Shown here one piece after another: positions 27,001-42,000 of a stretch of DNA of 64,000 nt. Origin of the DNA: an uncultured Desulfospira sp. Its GTDB lineage: Bacteria > Desulfobacterota > Desulfobacteria > Desulfobacterales > Desulfobacteraceae. The position numbers are program-made. Location: positions 5,408,001-5,472,000 of the forward strand of contig OY760175.1 of assembly GCA_963663165.1 (NCBI GenBank), written 5' to 3'. Every line of letters starts with the position of its first letter. Positions within the stretch are counted from its first letter, which is position 1.

Positions 27001-30000
27001 CTCTAATCGAGGCAGTCTTTCTGACTCTGGGTATCTGGAACGCTTATCAGGCAAGGCTCTCCAAGGCCGTTTTGCCGGACCTACCCTGTTTTCGGGTTTC
27101 GGAAAAAAAATTCACTCTTAAATTCAGGCTGATTTTTGCATAATATACTGATTTTAAATATAATATAAAAATGCCGGACCTCTTTTGGATATTTTGCGAA
27201 CAAATTGTCAAAGATCGATAAGGCCTCATGACACGGAATACGCCTTTGTATTGGGCAGATCCCCGGTGCCGGAGAATTCAACATGCCCGACGCAATGCCT
27301 GCAAAGCGGGTAATACCGGATGGTATCCTCCCCATGGTCAATGACTTCTTCCAGGTCAGACTGCATTTTCATGAACTTGTATTCGGTCATGTTGCTGCAC
27401 TCAAATACGGATTTCTGAACCCGTGTCCCTTACCCTTTCAGGATTTTCACTACCCTGTACCGGACCCGGTTGTCAACAATATCAAAGCAGACCAGGAAAA
27501 ATTTATACCCCGAACCAGAAAAATTCAAACCCGTATTCAGACTCTCCATGGCAAAGCGGCCCGGACGTTGGCCGGTATTGTATATTCCGGCAACCGGTAA
27601 CCGCCGGATTCATGGAAAGACTGAAGTACATCTATCAGGAAATAATCATTGGAGACTACTACAATGGTATGATCGCTATGCTTTCGTGCATACTCGCAGG
27701 AAAACGAAGCGATAACCGAATCCAGGCCGTCAAGGAGTTTGCCGTTTTTAAGGCTTTTTTCATTTCGCTTCTTTTTTTTGGCGAACTTCTCATCAAAGGG
27801 ATTCTCAATGAGCTTTTGCTCACTGTATTGAATGTTTTTTCTAAGCCTTTTTGTTATTTTTTTTATTGCGCCCTGTGACATTTTCTGGTTTGTAATACTT
27901 TCGGCCCCTTTAAAAATATCAGTGTACGAAATATGCGATTCCTCGCACAACGTCCCCCGGTACTTTTTTAAATGACGGTACAGCAGGCCAAAAACGGAAA
28001 ATCTGTTTTCAAACCATTTGTCGTAGTTTTCCAGATCAACATTCTTATGAAACCATAACCCGAGAAATTCCGCCCACACAAGGGAGGGGATGCGCGTCTT
28101 TGCCCCGCATTTTTCCCAGTACCTGAGCGTAGATGTGTGCCAGGGCTCGCACTTTTTTGATCCAAGCAGAATGGCCTCGGCCAGGTTAAACAGGATATTG
28201 GTATCCGGAAGAAAAATTGGATTTTTAATCATTGTCCATGTCCTCCGCATCATCCAAGTCTTCCCATTCGTCCGGTTTCAGTCCGGCGATATCTTCCGCT
28301 GTCATGGGAACATAGGGAACCTGATCCTGATCCGGAAAATTAAAAATTTCATTTTCGCCATACCAGAGCAGGGCCTCTTCAACAGCCTTATCAAACTCTT
28401 TTTCAAATACCGGAGAGTTAAGATCAAGCATCCGGAAGGGTGAGGCATTAATAATTTTCAGGATCTGTTTTTCATCTTCTTTTGCCGCACCCGTACAAAC
28501 AATCACGTTGGGGGTCGGCTGGACCGAAAATGCTGCTGTGATATGATCTTTAAAAAATTTTCGTCCCCGCAGGTCTTTGGGGGGGGAGGGTATAAGAATG
28601 ACAACCAGGCAGGGATCATGCTCCCGGCATTTATCAGGAATCAGGTCCAGACTGTCAACAACGACCAGGTCTTTATCAAGCTTGGATTTAATGAAATCCA
28701 GAGAAATCTGACAGGATTCCCGGTACAGCAGTACAGCATTCGAATGGGACCGGACGGAAGGAGCCGGTATGCTATGTGAGATCTGCTCCTGACTTTCAAA
28801 CAGCTTGTTAACAACCGATATAAGCTGCTCTTCGCCTCCTCCCCCTCTTTTGTCTTTGTGAACATAGGCGTAAAAATGGTAGTTGGCAGCCGTAAACCAG
28901 TCTTTTACAGTTCCCCTGGCACTGTAAACAATCACGTTTCTCAGAGAGGAGAGCCGCCGCAACACCTCGCCAACGGTTGCCCCGTTGCCGTCAAACTCAT
29001 CCTGCACCTTCCCCATGTCGATATCCAGCAGGTAAAGATGAAAGTAATGCCGGCGGGAAAGGGAGAGCACCTCAGACATATGGTCTGTGCGATGCACGGC
29101 ATACCCCAGTTCTTCAAGGCTCTGTGCAGCCATAAAAGCCGGCTCATCCGGGTTGAAAATTTCATCGTCAAGAAAAAGAATGTTAAACTCGTTTTTATCC
29201 ATGTCAGATTCCTTTCTATTGTGGGATCTTGCTTCTAATTATAAAGATAGTGGACGCCCGGCTCACTGAGATGTCGATGCTTAATTCCATCATATCACAG
29301 GCCTTTTTGACAAGAGAGAGCCCTAATCCCGTATTCTGGGCCACCCCTTTTTCTGAAACATAGGGATCAAAGACCCGGTTGTTGCGCAACAGGTCCTCTG
29401 GGATCCCTCCGGCAAAATCTTTGAATGTAACAGTATCCCTGTCATAATCCACATCAATGGTCACTGCCGGATCCGGCACGGGGATGTTCCGGCGTTCATA
29501 AGCCTCTTTCGAGTTTAGTATCAGATTTTCAAAAATGATCTTCAGATACCCCCGGTCAGAGAGCCACAGCTTTGCCTCGCCCTCAAAAGAAACAGAAATT
29601 GTAACAGGACTCCAGCTTGTCAGTGTTTTAAAAAATTCTTTCAGGTCCACATCTTCAGGTTCAGGTCCTTGGTTTCTGGATAGACTGAGGATCACCTCCA
29701 TATCCCGGATAACCTGTTCCATTATTACCGGTTCTTTCATATCCGGGGCCTTTTTCCTGGTTCTGTCCACCAGGGAGGTGAGGCTGGATATCTTGGAGTT
29801 GACATCATGATCAAACCTGTGGAGCTGTTCCTGGACCGTAAGGCTGTCAATGAGCTGGCTTCGCCGTGTATGGGCAAAAGAATTTCCGGGATAGGCTTCA
29901 AGACTTTTATCCAGAAAATCCACAGCCCTGCGGGTCAAAAAATAGTAGTTTTGATCTTCGGCTTCAGGATCTGAATATGCCAGTTCCGAGAGAAGTAAAA

Positions 30001-39000: not shown

Positions 39001-42000
39001 CCAGATGGGGGATGGCCGGCAGGGTTCCGGCCTTGATCCGCCGGAACCGGTCAGGGGTCAGCGGCTGATCCGATTCAAATTCAGGTGTTTTCTTTTCAAT
39101 CCCCCGGACCAGCCGGGTGACGGTCTCTTTAACCCGGGTCAGGCCTGTCATGGAACGAAGCTGGTCAAAGGCTGCGGGCATGCCTGATTGAAGTCCGTAA
39201 ACCTGTCGGAGGTGATCGAAAAACGCTTCTTCTTCACCCATGTACTGCACCAGATTTTTTATGGACTCTCCACGATGGCGCATGGCACCGGCAACGGAGG
39301 GGGACAGGCTGTCAAAATCATTGAAGGCCGGGACACATCCTTTTTCCAGTCCGTGAAGTGCCATGGCCCTGAAAACTTCATCCCGGCCGGCCGTTTCCAC
39401 CCGGACCACCCGGGCCGATCCCGAGGCTGCCCTTTTGCCGGGTTCCAGAGAAAAAACAAAATCCAGGCCAAGGCGCATGAACCGTCTTGCCACGGAAGCC
39501 TCATCATCTCCGTCCACCCAGATCCAGATATTTCTGCAGGCACCGGGCAGGGAAAAAATACTGTTTCTGAGCAACCCCTGGATCTGTATTCCAATATCCG
39601 ATGCCGGGGGCAGCTTTTCAAACAGGGCACCGTCATAAACCACAAAGGCCAGGTGCCGCCCGGGATCAGAAAGATGGGCTGTCATAAACTGGGCAATCTC
39701 ATTAATGTCCCCGTCATAGGTATACCTTAACCGCCCCCGGGGAGTGCTTGGGCTTTTGGACGGGGGGGATTTCATGGTAAGGCCCATGGGGGCGTGCTTG
39801 AGTTTATCCAGACCCTTGGCCGGGCGATGCGTTTTCTTTTCTTTGCGGGATCTGAGGTGGTCAAGGCTATGGGCGTCAAAATAGTAAAGTCCCCTGGCAT
39901 CCAGAAAGGCCACTGCTTTATACCCCAATTCACAGGTGAGATACCAGTAAAGGTAATGGTCAAGCTGGATACGGGAATTGTCCTTTAAGATAAACTCATC
40001 CCGGACATGTCCGAGAATAAGAAACAGGCGGTCCGCGTAGTTTTTTAACGCTTTCATCTTATATTTCTCCGGAAACCAGGGTCCGGGTCTTTAAAGGGGG
40101 AATCCCGCAGAAAAAAAGTCCGTCCATGTTTACATCCACCTCAAGGGTGCGTGGTCCAAACAAGAAGGCCTCTTTTTCCGTGATATACCTGTCGGTTAAA
40201 AAAAGAACCCGTTGGTTTTCCGATCCCCTCAGGCCCCGCCCCCTGTTTTGCTTTTCCAGGTAGGGCCCGCAGATAACCACATCGCAAAGTTCTAAAACCC
40301 GATTAAAATTCATTTCAATTTCCTGATAACTGAATCCTGTGTAAAGTATGATTCCCATTTCATTTTTTCCGGCACATGCCATTAAATCCAACACGTCATA
40401 GTACTGGACCAGGGGTTCACCGCCTGAAATGACCAGCCCCCTGGTTCCGGCCTTTGAAAGAAAGGCGGCCACCTGTCCTTTGCCAATTTGCCGGCCGCCA
40501 TCCATGTCCTGCCATTGTGGCGCAATGCAGCCCGGGCAAGACCTGGGACAGCCCTGGAACCAGACAGCGGATTTCACGCTTTTTCCAAAACTTCCGGTAT
40601 GGGCTTTCCAGGCAGCAATTCGCATCAGACCTTCCTTTCCCGATACCGGGCCAGATCAAAAAAATGTTCCTCGGCCGGGCGGTTTTCATACCCTCTCACC
40701 GTGGCGTAATCCTTTGCCCCCACTGCAGCCATAATCCCTTCCAGACGCTGGGCGTGGGTCAGGGGATCCAGGGTGTTGAAATCGACTTCCATGGAAAGTT
40801 CATCCGCCTCCTCGCCAATGTTCACCAAAATTTTTTCCCCCCGTTCATTTTCCATGAGCAGAATATTGTTAAGGCGCGGGTCATCTTCCTGGAAAAGATT
40901 ATCTACCACTTCAAAGCCCCGGCGAACCATCTTCTCAGCAATATCTGACTGTAGATCCATTTTACGGATATAGCGGATAAAGGCGCCTTCCGCAGAGAAC
41001 CCGGCATGGTTTACCCGGTCAACAACCGTATCAAGCAGACGTTCCAGTTCCTTCATCTGATCCAGATTCATCCTGCCAAGCCCGGTTTTCAGTTTTCGGG
41101 CGTTTTCAAATTCCTGTTTTGCCGCCAGCCACTCTTTTTCCGCCCAGAGGGGAATCTCAATGTCAACCACCTGGTTCGCCCCCTGTTTTGTGGAGAATTC
41201 CCGTTTTACAAGGGTGATGTTCATCATCTTTGCAACCTGGTCAAAGCTGTCGTTCAATTCTATTTCAAGGGCCTGTCCTTCAATACAGGTCTGTTCAATC
41301 CCGGGGACATCCCGGGCCAGCAGGGTATGCCAGTTCTGGGCCAGGGCCGTACACGCCTGGTACTGCCCGTTTTGCAGATTGGCTTCCATATTCCGGATCT
41401 GGTCGGTATAGGTTCCGAATTCCCGGGGAAAAAATCGTTCCATCTCCATTTTCTCAAGCGCCTGATATAATTCTTTTACCAGGTTCAGGCTATGTTCGGC
41501 AAACTCCCTGCTGTCCCTTTCCTTCTGTTCCAGGGTGCCGATCCTGCCTGAAATCCGGTCAATGGCCTGTTTCTGCTCCCGGATTCCGGACTCGGCCGCC
41601 CGGATGCTTTTTTGAGCCTGCTCCAGCCTGCCGGACAACTTCCTGTTTTCTCTTTCCTGCCGGTCAATATGGTTGCGAAGCTTTTTAATTTCCAATCGTC
41701 TGAATATGTAGTCAATCACTTCGGCCGGAACTGCCGGCTGTTTTCTTCCACTCATTTTGTCCTCCATGTATAGCCATAATAGCGCTTAATGTTTCAGGTA
41801 TTTTGAAAATATTTTTTTGTTAAAAAAGGAAATTTTTTTTCAACTGGTTGAGACCAGGAAATCAATTTTTTGCTTTTTGGGGGTTAAAATTTTTCAATCC
41901 TCTCTAATCGAGGCGGTGTTTCTAACTTTTCGGTGTGGTTGTTGTCAACACACTTTCCGTCTAGAAAAGTCTCAATCCTCTCTAATCGAGGCGGTGTTTC

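What a model noticed while it worked through the whole genome (the two positions that open the first line are those of the whole stretch)
27537..41755. Conserved 11-gene kinase-phosphatase-vWA-AAA+ system lodged between two type III CRISPR arrays
Between two type III-D CRISPR arrays lies one 14-kb operon of 11 genes: coiled-coil protein, small radical-SAM/NrdG-like activase, double AAA+ ATPase, 193-aa protein, PP2C phosphatase, vWA protein, FHA-like protein, Ser/Thr kinase, GHKL ATPase, receiver-domain protein and a PIN-like protein. The same 11 genes occur in the same order on an unrelated metagenome contig. I propose that this is a self-contained, horizontally moving anti-phage system in which a vWA-FHA-PP2C-kinase sensor drives a phosphorelay to a PIN RNase effector. 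It fits no known defence system in the PADLOC library and would be a new multi-gene defence system with an unusual radical-SAM component.
Evidence so far: Gene order and Pfam domains of g04626-g04636. PADLOC gives only weak hits, to the kinase, the AAA+ gene and marginally g04636 (E 8e-4), and none to the other eight. The flanking arrays have 14 and 11 repeats, at 5434055-5434997 and 5449894-5450633. g04630 has only 10 relatives at E<=1e-10 among 5.8 billion proteins, one of them named an FHA-domain protein. Metagenome locus L124 (66-kb contig) carries all 11 genes co-linear at 30-57% aa identity. L123, L125 and L126 carry the parts their short contigs allow, in the same order. g04630 was not found in the two other species of the genus nor in G037. 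g04636 has only about 20% identical matches, in 11 of 400 other Desulfobacterales.
(Added by a program. Inside this text positions count along the whole contig: contig position 5,408,001 is position 1 of the stretch shown here. "Call 12" and the like, gene names such as g00115 and contig names such as C1 are that model's own, and its searches are not shown. The text may have been shortened before it was handed on; [...] marks where a part breaks off. The agent that wrote the report below was given it as the finding of a first reader that could run no searches.)

Follow-up and report, generated by a model that had tools for sequence, protein, structure and literature searches.

The report
Type III CRISPR-linked phospho-signalling RNase cassette

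Summary
Eleven tightly packed minus-strand genes (27537-41755) lie between two arrays of a four-array type III-D locus. The domain calls are correct, catalytic motifs are intact, and the same 11 genes are colinear on metagenome locus L005.

The interpretation needs changing. The CRISPR neighbourhood is not coincidental. Of 9 loci with readable flanks, 7 carry type III effector or CRISPR adaptation genes beside the cassette or its core, and one carries a CARF gene. In L034 the core sits inside a III-D effector operon, between cas7 and csx10.

The conserved core is the last three genes:
- a histidine kinase;
- a PleD-like tandem-receiver protein (AlphaFold pLDDT 91);
- a PIN nuclease with an invariant D-E-D-D set.

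A complex model places the receiver protein's acidic tail over the PIN pocket (0.85 against 0.02 for the best control).

The PP2C-vWA-FHA-kinase block, the double AAA+ gene and the radical-SAM gene with its partner are optional, movable add-ons.

My best reading is a type III CRISPR accessory cassette in which a His-Asp switch frees a PIN RNase. The input signal and the role of the radical-SAM unit remain unknown. A CRISPR-linked "(vWA + FHA + PP2C)" candidate was already listed by Altae-Tran et al. 2023. I found no description of the kinase-receiver-PIN core.

The parts
40625..41755 (-). g1: 376-aa protein with an N-terminal coiled coil and helical bundles, a C-terminal beta domain and an invariant GYE motif. 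It is the partner gene of the radical-SAM gene.
   Evidence: ORF. All orthologues start MSGRK. AF2 pLDDT 79. No clear PDB fold match. g1-like ORFs flank the radical-SAM gene in L032 too.
40059..40625 (-). g2: small NrdG-like radical-SAM protein (188 aa).
   Evidence: Fer4_12 E 6.6e-24. NrdG TIGR02491 E 3e-20, below its cut-off. CPRSCPGC and GGEP motifs are kept.
37562..40057 (-). g3: 831-aa protein with an unknown 340-aa N-terminal domain and two AAA+ modules of the CbbX/SpoVK/EccA type.
   Evidence: Both Walker A and both Walker B motifs are kept. The N-terminal part has no Pfam or PDB sequence hit.
36990..37571 (-). g4: 193-aa coiled-coil protein.
   Evidence: Only coiled-coil type hits. Weakly conserved, 18-30% identity.
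35288..37000 (-). g5: PP2C Ser/Thr phosphatase with an unknown 250-aa N-terminal domain.
   Evidence: PP2C_2 E 4.6e-12. Metal-binding motifs are kept in 5 of 5 orthologues.
33953..35269 (-). g6: vWA protein with a complete MIDAS motif and a conserved Ser/Thr-rich C-terminal tail.
   Evidence: VWA_2 and VWA. DxSxS..T..D and the tail YTSSRSSVRS appear in the alignment. It is the best-conserved gene, 50-58% identity.
32914..33942 (-). g7: 342-aa protein with beta-rich N-terminal parts, a low-complexity linker and a C-terminal FHA domain.
   Evidence: Alignment A1. FHA in orthologues: E 1.2e-4 for L003 (over the cut-off) and 4.6e-3 for L005. Only 10 relatives.
30558..32912 (-). g8: active non-RD Ser/Thr kinase, then a kinase-like (pseudokinase) region, then a small C-terminal alpha/beta domain.
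   Evidence: Pkinase. Motifs GxGxxG, VLIK, YCDLKPDN, DMG and APE. Residues 360-789 look kinase-like in the Atlas (0.93, 186 shared features).
29216..30583 (-). g9: cytoplasmic histidine kinase with a helical, weakly TPR-like N-terminal domain.
   Evidence: HATPase_c. H box FDHDVNSK and the N, G1 and G2 boxes are kept. Weak TPR hits in 3 of 4 orthologues. No TM segment.
28225..29202 (-). g10: response regulator made of a phospho-competent receiver, a second receiver-like domain without an acceptor Asp, and an acidic C-terminal tail.
   Evidence: D12, D13, D60 and K116 are invariant in 42 sequences. AF2 pLDDT 91, pTM 0.88. The best fold match is the PleD tandem receivers, E 1.9e-10.
27537..28232 (-). 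g11: PIN-domain nuclease with a helical insert. It is the predicted effector.
   Evidence: D10, E55, D168, D171 and D196 are invariant in 18 sequences. 17 of 18 hit PIN_4. Predicted to bind g10.
41891..42665 (-). CRISPR array 3: 11 repeats, with the degenerate last repeat next to g1. It has no conserved leader.
26050..27025 (-). CRISPR array 2: 13 repeats plus a degenerate terminal repeat.
27026..27300 (-). Leader of array 2, nearly identical to the leader of array 4. It lies just downstream of g11.
43340..51235 (-). Type III-D effector operon (cas10 without HD, cas7 genes, csx10, csx19), upstream of array 3 and on the same strand as the cassette.
   Evidence: PADLOC. GGDD is kept in Cas10.

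Best explanation
The operon is the fullest version of a rare, modular accessory cassette of type III (mostly III-D) CRISPR-Cas loci.

Core. The conserved core is the last three genes. A cytoplasmic histidine kinase (g9) phosphorylates the first receiver domain of a tandem-receiver protein (g10). g10 holds a PIN RNase (g11) in a complex, with its acidic C-terminal tail lying over the nuclease pocket, in the way a VapB antitoxin masks VapC. A change in g10 phosphorylation on infection frees or activates the PIN enzyme. The enzyme then cuts RNA and stops growth or viral expression.

Add-ons. The upstream genes are optional layers.
- A Ser/Thr switch of the TerY-P kind. The kinase-pseudokinase g8 writes, the PP2C g5 erases, and the FHA protein g7 reads. 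The vWA protein g6, with its MIDAS site and Ser/Thr-rich tail, is the likely target or sensor.
- A double AAA+ remodeller (g3) with a coiled-coil partner (g4).
- A radical-SAM enzyme (g2) paired with g1. Its substrate is unknown.

Link to CRISPR. These III-D Cas10 proteins lack an HD nuclease but keep the cyclase motif, so the cassette most likely serves as an ancillary effector arm or back-up of type III immunity.

Shown here: gene content, intact motifs, the fold of g10, recurrent linkage to type III genes, and modularity.

Inferred: phosphotransfer, masking and release of PIN, RNA as the substrate, the direction of the switch, and any input from Cas10 products.
For: Operon: 11 genes on one strand, gaps -26 to +18 nt.

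Intact catalytic motifs: the g9 H, N, G1 and G2 boxes, PP2C and MIDAS. Kinase and Walker motifs. The receiver residues D12, D13, D60 and K116 are invariant in 42 sequences. The PIN D-E-D-D set is invariant in 18 sequences, and 17 of 18 hit PIN_4.

g10 fold: two receiver folds (pLDDT 91). The best match is the PleD D1-D2 pair, E 1.9e-10.

Complex model of g10 with g11: score 0.85, best of 3 controls 0.02. That mark was reached by 116 of 157 solved complexes and by 2 of 215 mismatched pairs. These counts hold only roughly here because my own alignments were used. The runs agree in at least 78% of contacts and the partner pLDDT is at least 84. g10 residues 298-314 touch g11 residues 12, 15, 18-19, 165, 168 and 195-196, which lie beside the catalytic residues.

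Type III linkage:
- Window: cassette between a III-D effector operon plus array and a leader plus array.
- L003/L012: cassette followed on the same strand by csx20, cas10d, cas7, csx10, csx19.
- L005: a CARF7 gene two genes upstream.
- L034: the trio lies between cas7 and csx10 inside a III-D operon whose Cas10 is 54% identical to the window's.
- L032: a rearranged full cassette directly upstream of cas10d.
- L033 and L035: FHA-STK (seen in L033 only) and the trio next to cas2-RT-PrimPol(-cas1), and in L033 an array of 27 repeats.
- L015: the trio followed by a CRISPR-type RT.

Identities of the cassette and of Cas10 do not track each other. Against L003, g10 is 40% identical and Cas10 23%. 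Against L034, g10 is 28% and Cas10 54%. This argues for repeated association and against a single co-inheritance.

The RAMP family was found in 8 of 8 other carrier genomes tested, against 5 of 14 control genomes.

Both Cas10 proteins compared keep GGDD and are short. Hoikkala et al. 2024 report HD domains in 3% of III-D Cas10 (PMC11229360, passages read).
Against: - No CARF, SAVED or other known cyclic-nucleotide sensor was found in any of the 11 proteins. The one domain I suspected, the g10 C-terminal part, is receiver-like and not CARF. So no path from Cas10 to the cassette is visible.
- Several domains remain unassigned: g3 N-terminus, g5 N-terminus, g7 N-terminus, g8 C-terminal end, and g1.
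- L036 shows no cas gene with my tblastn queries in the 13.8 kb held.
- The III-D systems closest to the window's (G645, G658) lack the cassette, so it is dispensable for them.
- The loci are few, and some are kin (L033 and L035 are from one genus).
- The complex model is a prediction. A pass can reflect likeness to solved receiver or PIN complexes.
- There are no expression data and no phage data.
Confidence: 0.55

Rival explanations
1. A stand-alone anti-phage system. The cassette senses infection itself, through the vWA, FHA, kinase and TPR-kinase parts. It triggers the PIN RNase without any input from CRISPR-Cas, and sits beside type III loci only because defence genes cluster and move together.
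For: No nucleotide-sensor domain was found. The cassette has its own sensors, switches and effector. Detocs shows that a two-component system alone can defend (bioRxiv 10.1101/2023.01.24.525353, passages read). TerY-P-like triads are reported as stand-alone systems (PMC11090510, section read). L036 has no cas gene detected. L005 shows only a CARF gene and an integrase fragment near the cassette.
Against: General island clustering would give mixed neighbours. Here the neighbours are type III genes in 7 of 9 loci, directly adjacent, on the same strand and in different arrangements. One of these is an insertion inside an effector operon.
Confidence: 0.22
2. A regulated toxin-antitoxin-like addiction or control module. 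g10 and g11 act as an antitoxin-toxin pair that stabilises the CRISPR locus or tunes its expression or adaptation, and does not kill infected cells.
For: The predicted g10-g11 complex has the PIN pocket covered. Altae-Tran et al. 2023 note toxin-antitoxin modules next to cas genes that could safeguard them (PMC10910872, passage read). In L015, L033 and L035 the trio lies next to adaptation genes (RT, cas2, cas1, PrimPol) and not next to effector genes.
Against: g10 has no DNA-binding domain for autoregulation. An intact histidine kinase and up to eight further signalling genes are more than addiction needs.
Confidence: 0.1
3. Non-defence signalling, such as developmental or stress signalling, that happens to lie in this region.
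For: FHA, PP2C, Ser/Thr kinase, vWA and two-component proteins are common in housekeeping signalling. There is no phage assay.
Against: The distribution is patchy and crosses phyla, and the cassette is absent from congeners: 0 of 30 relatives, 2 of 232 and 2 of 401 genomes. It is recurrently linked to type III genes. It ends in a PIN nuclease.
Confidence: 0.05

Closest known systems
Detocs (defensive two-component system; Rousset et al., bioRxiv 10.1101/2023.01.24.525353, passages read)
   Same: A cytoplasmic sensor histidine kinase with N-terminal TPR-like repeats, phosphotransfer to a receiver, and a cell-arresting effector. It is a three-gene core.
   Different: In Detocs the effector (mostly a PNP ATP nucleosidase) is fused to the receiver, and a separate single-receiver buffer protein exists. 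Here the receiver protein is a tandem REC-REC' without an enzyme, and the PIN effector is a separate gene predicted to be bound by it. There are no PADLOC hits for g9-g11. The core is linked to type III CRISPR loci.
TerY-P triad (vWA, PP2C, Ser/Thr kinase), as described in PMC11090510 (section read)
   Same: A vWA protein with MIDAS, a PP2C phosphatase and an active Ser/Thr kinase in one operon within defence contexts.
   Different: The gene order here is PP2C-vWA-FHA-kinase, with an added FHA protein. The kinase carries a pseudokinase and an alpha/beta domain in place of a zinc ribbon or OB fold: six scattered Cys, no CxxC pairs. The vWA and PP2C genes have no PADLOC hit.
Compound type III-A CoCoNuT operons with a SpoVK-type double AAA+ between vWA genes (PMC11090510, section 10 read)
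   Same: A TerY-P-like module combined with a tandem SpoVK/CDC48-like AAA+ ATPase and coiled-coil proteins, in a large defence operon that is sometimes linked to CARF proteins.
   Different: There is no McrBC/CnuBC core, no HEPN helicase and no second vWA gene. Here both AAA+ modules keep Walker A and B. In that paper only the C-terminal one does.
CRISPR-linked candidate '(vWA + FHA + PP2C)' and the vWA/kinase/phosphatase associations of Altae-Tran et al. 2023 (PMC10910872; one text passage and supplement file 2 rows seen)
   Same: The same three domain types, reported as associated with CRISPR loci.
   Different: Only a name and a seed position are listed (a gene of about 501 aa, a length that none of g5-g7 has). 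I could not fetch the record, so identity with this cassette is untested. No mention of the histidine kinase, tandem receiver, PIN, AAA+ or radical-SAM genes was found.
VapBC-type PIN toxin-antitoxin pairs (recalled knowledge)
   Same: A PIN nuclease with four acidic residues whose pocket is covered by a partner's C-terminal tail in the predicted complex.
   Different: The partner is a phosphorylatable tandem receiver, not a DNA-binding antitoxin.
PleD receiver stem, and Cam2 (TM + REC type III effector proposed by Hoikkala et al. 2024, PMC11229360, passages read)
   Same: g10 has the REC plus adaptor-REC architecture of PleD. Cam2 sets a precedent for a receiver domain in type III accessory proteins.
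   Different: g10 has no GGDEF output and no membrane domain. Unlike Cam2, a cognate histidine kinase is encoded next to it.

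Membership tests
Type III CRISPR-Cas accessory (ancillary) module | Recurrent, close genomic linkage to type III cas genes in unrelated genomes | tested here: met
   7 of 9 loci with readable flanks have type III effector or CRISPR adaptation genes beside the cassette or trio. One has a CARF7 gene, and one (L036) has none detected.
Type III CRISPR-Cas accessory (ancillary) module | A sensor domain for Cas10 products (CARF, SAVED or similar) | tested here: inconclusive
   None was found by Pfam, NCBIfam or PADLOC. The g10 C-terminal domain is receiver-like.
Detocs | Sensor histidine kinase with an intact phospho-accepting His and an N-terminal repeat sensor | tested here: met
   The H, N, G1 and G2 boxes are kept. 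Weak TPR hits in 3 of 4 orthologues.
Detocs | Effector domain fused to the receiver (DtcC) | tested here: not met
   g10 is REC-REC' only. PIN is a separate gene without a receiver.
Detocs | Separate single-receiver buffer protein (DtcB) | tested here: not met
   The only receiver hit among the 11 genes is g10.
TerY-P | vWA protein with MIDAS, plus PP2C, plus an active Ser/Thr kinase in one operon | tested here: met
TerY-P | Kinase fused at its C-terminus to a zinc ribbon or OB fold (as described in PMC11090510) | tested here: not met
   The C-terminal part looks kinase-like. There are only six scattered Cys. OB was not excluded for the last 100 residues.
TerY-P | Match to the system's profile models | tested here: inconclusive
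   g5 and g6 have no PADLOC hit at E <= 0.1. I did not verify that the library holds TerY-P models.
PIN-domain nucleases | Four conserved acidic residues on a PIN fold | tested here: met
   D10, E55, D168/D171 and D196 are invariant in 18 of 18 sequences. PIN_4 hits in 17 of 18, best E 8.1e-5, all below the gathering score. The fold itself was not modelled alone.
Glycyl-radical enzyme and activase pair | Activase with CxxxCxxC and a SAM-binding GGE motif, scoring as NrdG or PflA | tested here: inconclusive
   The motifs are present. NrdG scores 72.7 bits against a cut-off of 126.1.
Glycyl-radical enzyme and activase pair | Partner protein with the C-terminal RVxG[FYW] glycyl-radical motif or domain | tested here: not met
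   g1 has an invariant GYE near its C-terminus, but the Arg is not conserved and Pro often precedes the Gly. There is no Gly_radical Pfam hit. The motif consensus is recalled.
vWA-MoxR ternary systems (Kaur et al. 2020, PMC7159879, passages read) | MoxR-type AAA+ and a VMAP partner next to the vWA protein | tested here: not met
   g3 is of the CbbX/SpoVK/EccA type. No VMAP-like hit.

The most novel reading that the evidence does not exclude
Type III-D CRISPR-Cas complexes that lack an HD nuclease are wired to a protein-phosphorylation cascade in place of, or besides, CARF effectors. Target-RNA recognition, through a Cas10 product or through contact with the complex, is sensed by the N-terminal domain of the cassette's histidine kinase. 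The kinase flips a tandem-receiver 'antitoxin' and unleashes a PIN RNase. In the full cassette a Ser/Thr kinase-phosphatase-FHA-vWA switch and a radical-SAM/AAA+ unit set the threshold or reset the system. This would be the first His-Asp phospho-signalling arm of CRISPR immunity. It would also be a new job for an NrdG-like radical-SAM enzyme acting on the g1 protein.
Probability: 0.3. Interest if true: 0.85.

Novelty: new variant of a known kind. Interest (0 to 1): 0.7.

Why it matters
The known type III CRISPR ancillary effectors I am aware of are switched on by nucleotide second messengers that bind CARF, SAVED or similar domains. Here a histidine kinase, a tandem receiver and a PIN nuclease recur inside or beside type III loci. 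In one case they lie inside the effector operon itself. This points to a protein-phosphorylation route to the abortive-infection arm of CRISPR immunity, or to a dedicated back-up system.

The question is directly testable, because the core is only three genes with clear catalytic residues.

The full 11-gene version also joins Ser/Thr signalling, a double AAA+ machine and a radical-SAM enzyme whose partner has no known fold. It shows how defence cassettes are built from movable sub-modules.

The family is rare: about 10 to 20 full cassettes and 57 sequence clusters of the receiver protein. Its interest is therefore mechanistic more than ecological.

Tried and rejected
- CARF idea for the g10 C-terminal domain: rejected. 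It is a second receiver fold, as in PleD.
- Glycyl-radical idea for g1 (invariant GYE): weakened. The Arg of the motif is not conserved and there is no Gly_radical hit.
- g1 fold: Foldseek against PDB gave nothing at E <= 0.001. VIA-wide gave only generic helical-bundle rows with Z <= 11.2, including CheA P1/HPt at Z 8.8, within the noise stated for helical models. The Atlas shows an unnamed 138-member cluster at TM 0.76.
- Unknown domains searched against PDB sequences: g7 profile, g3 N-terminus and g5 N-terminus, nothing usable. The g10 and g11 profiles gave only receiver hits or noise.
- PADLOC: no Detocs-like or TerY-P-like hit.
- Promoter and terminator scan of 26900-43400: counts near the shuffled expectation (22 against 17.6, and 30 against 22.8). 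Not used as evidence.
- GC content: the operon is at 0.498 and the window at 0.482, not distinctive.
- Viral contigs: no relative of g7.
- Plasmids: no match to g10.
- RNA evidence: no RNA holder listed, so no reads were laid.
- Earlier notes of this scan: nothing.
- Thiocapsa imhoffii homologue of g10: its context could not be fetched.
- Literature: searches for vWA/PP2C/FHA with type III CRISPR, for histidine kinase/response regulator/PIN with type III, and for PIN/receiver/histidine kinase with anti-phage found no description of the kinase-receiver-PIN core. Shmakov et al. 2018 is not held. The supplements of Altae-Tran 2023 give only names. bioRxiv supplements were not opened.

Full report
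WHAT IS THERE

The window holds a large type III-D CRISPR-Cas super-locus, with every gene on the minus strand. Four arrays share one 36-nt repeat: 29, 13 plus one degenerate, 11, and 14 repeats. A lone repeat lies beside cas6.

The cas content is:
- cas6;
- cas1 with a PrimPol gene and a CRISPR-associated TPR gene;
- csx1 (CARF-HEPN);
- a III-D effector operon at 43340-51235 (cas10, cas7 genes, csx10, csx19);
- RT-cas1 and cas2.

Between array 3 (41891-42665) and the leader of array 2 lie eleven ORFs, 27537-41755. Gaps between neighbours run from -26 to +18 nt. By my reading, the reverse complement of the repeat ends in ATTGAGAC. That resembles the usual 3' end of class 1 repeats (recalled). 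The degenerate repeats lie at the low-coordinate ends. So the arrays are read on the same strand as the genes, and the trailer of array 3 ends 124 nt before g1.

Arrays 1, 2 and 4 share a conserved leader. Array 3 does not.

THE ELEVEN PROTEINS

- g2 is an NrdG-like small radical-SAM protein. Fer4_12 scores E 6.6e-24. It is below NCBIfam's NrdG cut-off. The CxxxCxxC and GGE motifs are kept.
- g3 has two CbbX/SpoVK/EccA-type AAA+ modules, both with Walker A and B, behind an unassigned 340-residue N-terminus.
- g5 is a PP2C with its metal-binding motifs. g6 is a vWA protein with a full MIDAS motif and a conserved Ser/Thr-rich C-terminal tail.
- g7 ends in an FHA domain. The L003 orthologue passes the Pfam cut-off.
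- g8 is an active non-RD kinase followed by a kinase-like region. The Atlas scores that region 0.93 with 186 shared features. It has no zinc ribbon.
- g9 is a soluble histidine kinase with intact H, N, G1 and G2 boxes and a weakly TPR-like N-terminus.
- g10 models with high confidence (pLDDT 91, pTM 0.88) as two receiver folds plus a helical acidic tail. The best structural match is the tandem receivers of PleD, E 1.9e-10. The first receiver keeps D12, D13, D60 and K116 in 42 of 42 aligned sequences. The second has no acceptor Asp.
- g11 is a PIN nuclease. D10, E55, D168/D171 and D196 are invariant in 18 sequences, and 17 of 18 give weak PIN_4 hits.
- g1 and g4 are coiled-coil-rich. g1 models at pLDDT 79. 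It has no convincing solved relative, but it resembles an unnamed 138-member Atlas cluster at TM 0.76.

None of the eleven has a membrane-like segment.

CONSERVATION AND RARITY

g7 has 10 relatives, g1 has 6, and g11 has 18 among 5.8 billion clustered proteins. g10 has 57 representatives at E <= 1e-10 among 1.84 billion.

The 11 genes are colinear on L005 at 30-57% identity. L003 (a Cloacimonadota MAG) carries g3-g11. L002, which is the same sequence as L006 (a Marinimicrobia MAG), together with L001, L004 and L007, carries what its short contig allows.

g7 was not found in 30 of 30 relatives, including both congeners at 96% and 100% completeness. The g10 family was found in 2 of 401 genomes sampled from the phylum, 2 of 232 genomes of the phylum of G001, and 7 of 401 genomes of the order. 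The counts for the window's own phylum and order include the window's genome.

THE CRISPR LINK IS RECURRENT

- L003/L012: the cassette is followed on the same strand by csx20, cas10d, cas7, csx10, a double cas7, csx19 and a triple cas7.
- L005: a CARF7-DUF2103 gene (PADLOC E 7e-88) lies two genes upstream.
- L015: a kinase-receiver-PIN trio is followed by a CRISPR-type reverse transcriptase. PADLOC gives RT E 8.6e-71, and it is 33% identical to the window's RT-Cas1.
- L034: the trio lies between cas7 and csx10, inside a III-D effector operon whose Cas10 is 54% identical to the window's.
- L032 (same family as the window's organism): a divergent full set runs in the order AAA+, a g4-sized gene, PP2C, vWA, a 293-aa gene, kinase, a 327-aa gene, histidine kinase, tandem receiver, PIN, g1-like, radical SAM, second g1-like. 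It leads straight into cas10d, cas7 and csx10.
- L033 and L035 (one genus): the trio lies between cas7 genes (L033) and cas2, RT, PrimPol and cas1. L033 also has an FHA-like gene and a kinase upstream of the trio, and an array of 27 repeats.
- L036: no cas gene was found with my tblastn queries.

In total, 7 of 9 loci with readable flanks have type III or CRISPR adaptation genes, one has a CARF gene, and one has none detected. The loci whose contigs end inside the cassette (L001, L002/L006, L004, L007, L008) say nothing either way.

RAMP genes occur in 8 of 8 other carrier genomes tested, against 5 of 14 control genomes. The Cas10 palm family was found in 1 of 3 carrier MAGs, and those MAGs are incomplete.

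Cassette identity and Cas10 identity are uncoupled, and the arrangements differ: after, before or inside the effector genes, or beside adaptation genes. The linkage was therefore formed or kept repeatedly.

The relatives G645 and G658 have a Cas10 51-52% identical to the window's. They have no full g10-like gene, so the cassette is optional for that III-D lineage.

MODULARITY

The invariant core is histidine kinase, tandem receiver and PIN. It is found in 5 of the 6 additional order-level loci, and L036 is incomplete.

FHA with kinase (L033), PP2C with vWA, the AAA+ gene, and g1 with the radical-SAM gene come and go or change place. The g1-like and radical-SAM genes stay adjacent even where they have moved (L032), which supports a functional pair.

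MECHANISM

Best reading, confidence 0.55. g9 autophosphorylates and transfers phosphate to D60 of g10. g10 binds g11 and covers its catalytic pocket with its acidic tail. A change in phosphorylation releases the RNase.

The complex model supports binding. The score is 0.85 and the best of 3 controls is 0.02. That mark was reached by 116 of 157 solved complexes and by 2 of 215 mismatched pairs, and these counts hold only roughly here because my own alignments were used. The runs agree in at least 78% of contacts and the partner pLDDT is at least 84. The model places g10 residues 298-314 against g11 residues 12, 15, 18-19, 165, 168 and 195-196. This is a prediction, not a measurement.

The Ser/Thr block resembles a TerY-P triad with an added FHA reader. 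The conserved Ser/Thr tail of the vWA protein is my candidate for the phospho-site (inference).

The role of the AAA+ and radical-SAM parts is open. A classical glycyl-radical partner is not supported.

How type III activity would reach the cassette is unknown. No CARF or SAVED domain was found, and several domains remain unassigned. Both Cas10 proteins compared keep GGDD and are short. Hoikkala et al. report HD domains in only 3% of III-D Cas10, which fits reliance on ancillary effectors (PMC11229360, passages read).

COMPARISON WITH WHAT IS KNOWN

The core works like Detocs but fails two of its defining features: a fused effector and a separate buffer receiver.

The middle block works like TerY-P but has another gene order, an extra FHA gene and a different kinase C-terminus.

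Pairing a TerY-P-like module with a double SpoVK-type AAA+ and coiled-coil proteins has a precedent in compound type III-A CoCoNuT operons (PMC11090510, sections read).

Shah et al. 2019 list a kinase (C3a189), a TPR protein and a Lon protease among type III accessory clusters (PMC6546367, passages read). g8 hits the C3a189 model only weakly, E 1.3e-6.

Altae-Tran et al. 2023 state that vWA-related systems associate with CRISPR loci alongside kinase and phosphatase proteins. They list a candidate named '(vWA + FHA + PP2C)' (PMC10910872: text passage and supplement rows). I could not fetch that locus, so it may or may not be this cassette.

I found no description of the kinase-tandem receiver-PIN core as a CRISPR accessory in five full-text searches.

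VERDICT

The feature is real, rare and modular. It is best filed as a new variant of type III CRISPR accessory module with a Detocs-like logic. Interest 0.7.

Noticed in passing
window 11362-13453, 26050-27025, 41891-42665, 62652-63640; leaders 13418-13660, 27026-27300, 63629-63915: Four arrays share one repeat, and array 4 differs by one base. Arrays 1, 2 and 4 have a shared leader of more than 200 nt, nearly identical between arrays 2 and 4. Array 3, directly behind the effector operon, has a different upstream sequence.
   Followed up: partly
window 21389-25690 (-): A 700-aa protein with only a Lon_C protease segment (E 3.9e-6), and two ORFs of 383 and 349 aa with no family hit, lie between csx1 and array 2. 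This may be a CalpL-like CRISPR-associated Lon protease set, cf. the C3a43 Lon protease cluster of Shah et al. 2019.
   Followed up: partly
window 13661-19408 (-): The locus has a second adaptation unit: cas1, a PrimPol gene (PADLOC E 1.1e-99), a CRISPR-associated TPR protein (PADLOC E 2.7e-185) and a HipA-like kinase gene. This is in addition to RT-cas1 and cas2 at 59783-62379.
   Followed up: no
window 51585-57162 (-): A Mutator/MULE-type transposase gene and an 834-aa HerA/TraD/VirD4-like ATPase lie between cas10 and RT-cas1.
   Followed up: no
window 5031-11053: A lone CRISPR repeat lies next to cas6. An ABC transporter set (permease, ATPase, solute-binding protein) and a metallophosphoesterase gene sit between cas6 and array 1.
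   Followed up: no
L034 (G679:C1164) 11300-15000 and about 21650: Further RAMP genes lie upstream of the III-D operon that holds the trio. This suggests a second type III module in tandem on that contig.
   Followed up: no
L032 5226-8717 (-): Two g1-like genes (525 and 432 aa) flank the radical-SAM gene just upstream of cas10d. In this relative the radical-SAM unit is duplicated and lies closest to the CRISPR effector genes.
   Followed up: partly
L005 16567-18020: Downstream of the metagenome copy of the cassette lie a 90-aa ORF and an integrase-core (rve) fragment. This hints at mobility.
   Followed up: no
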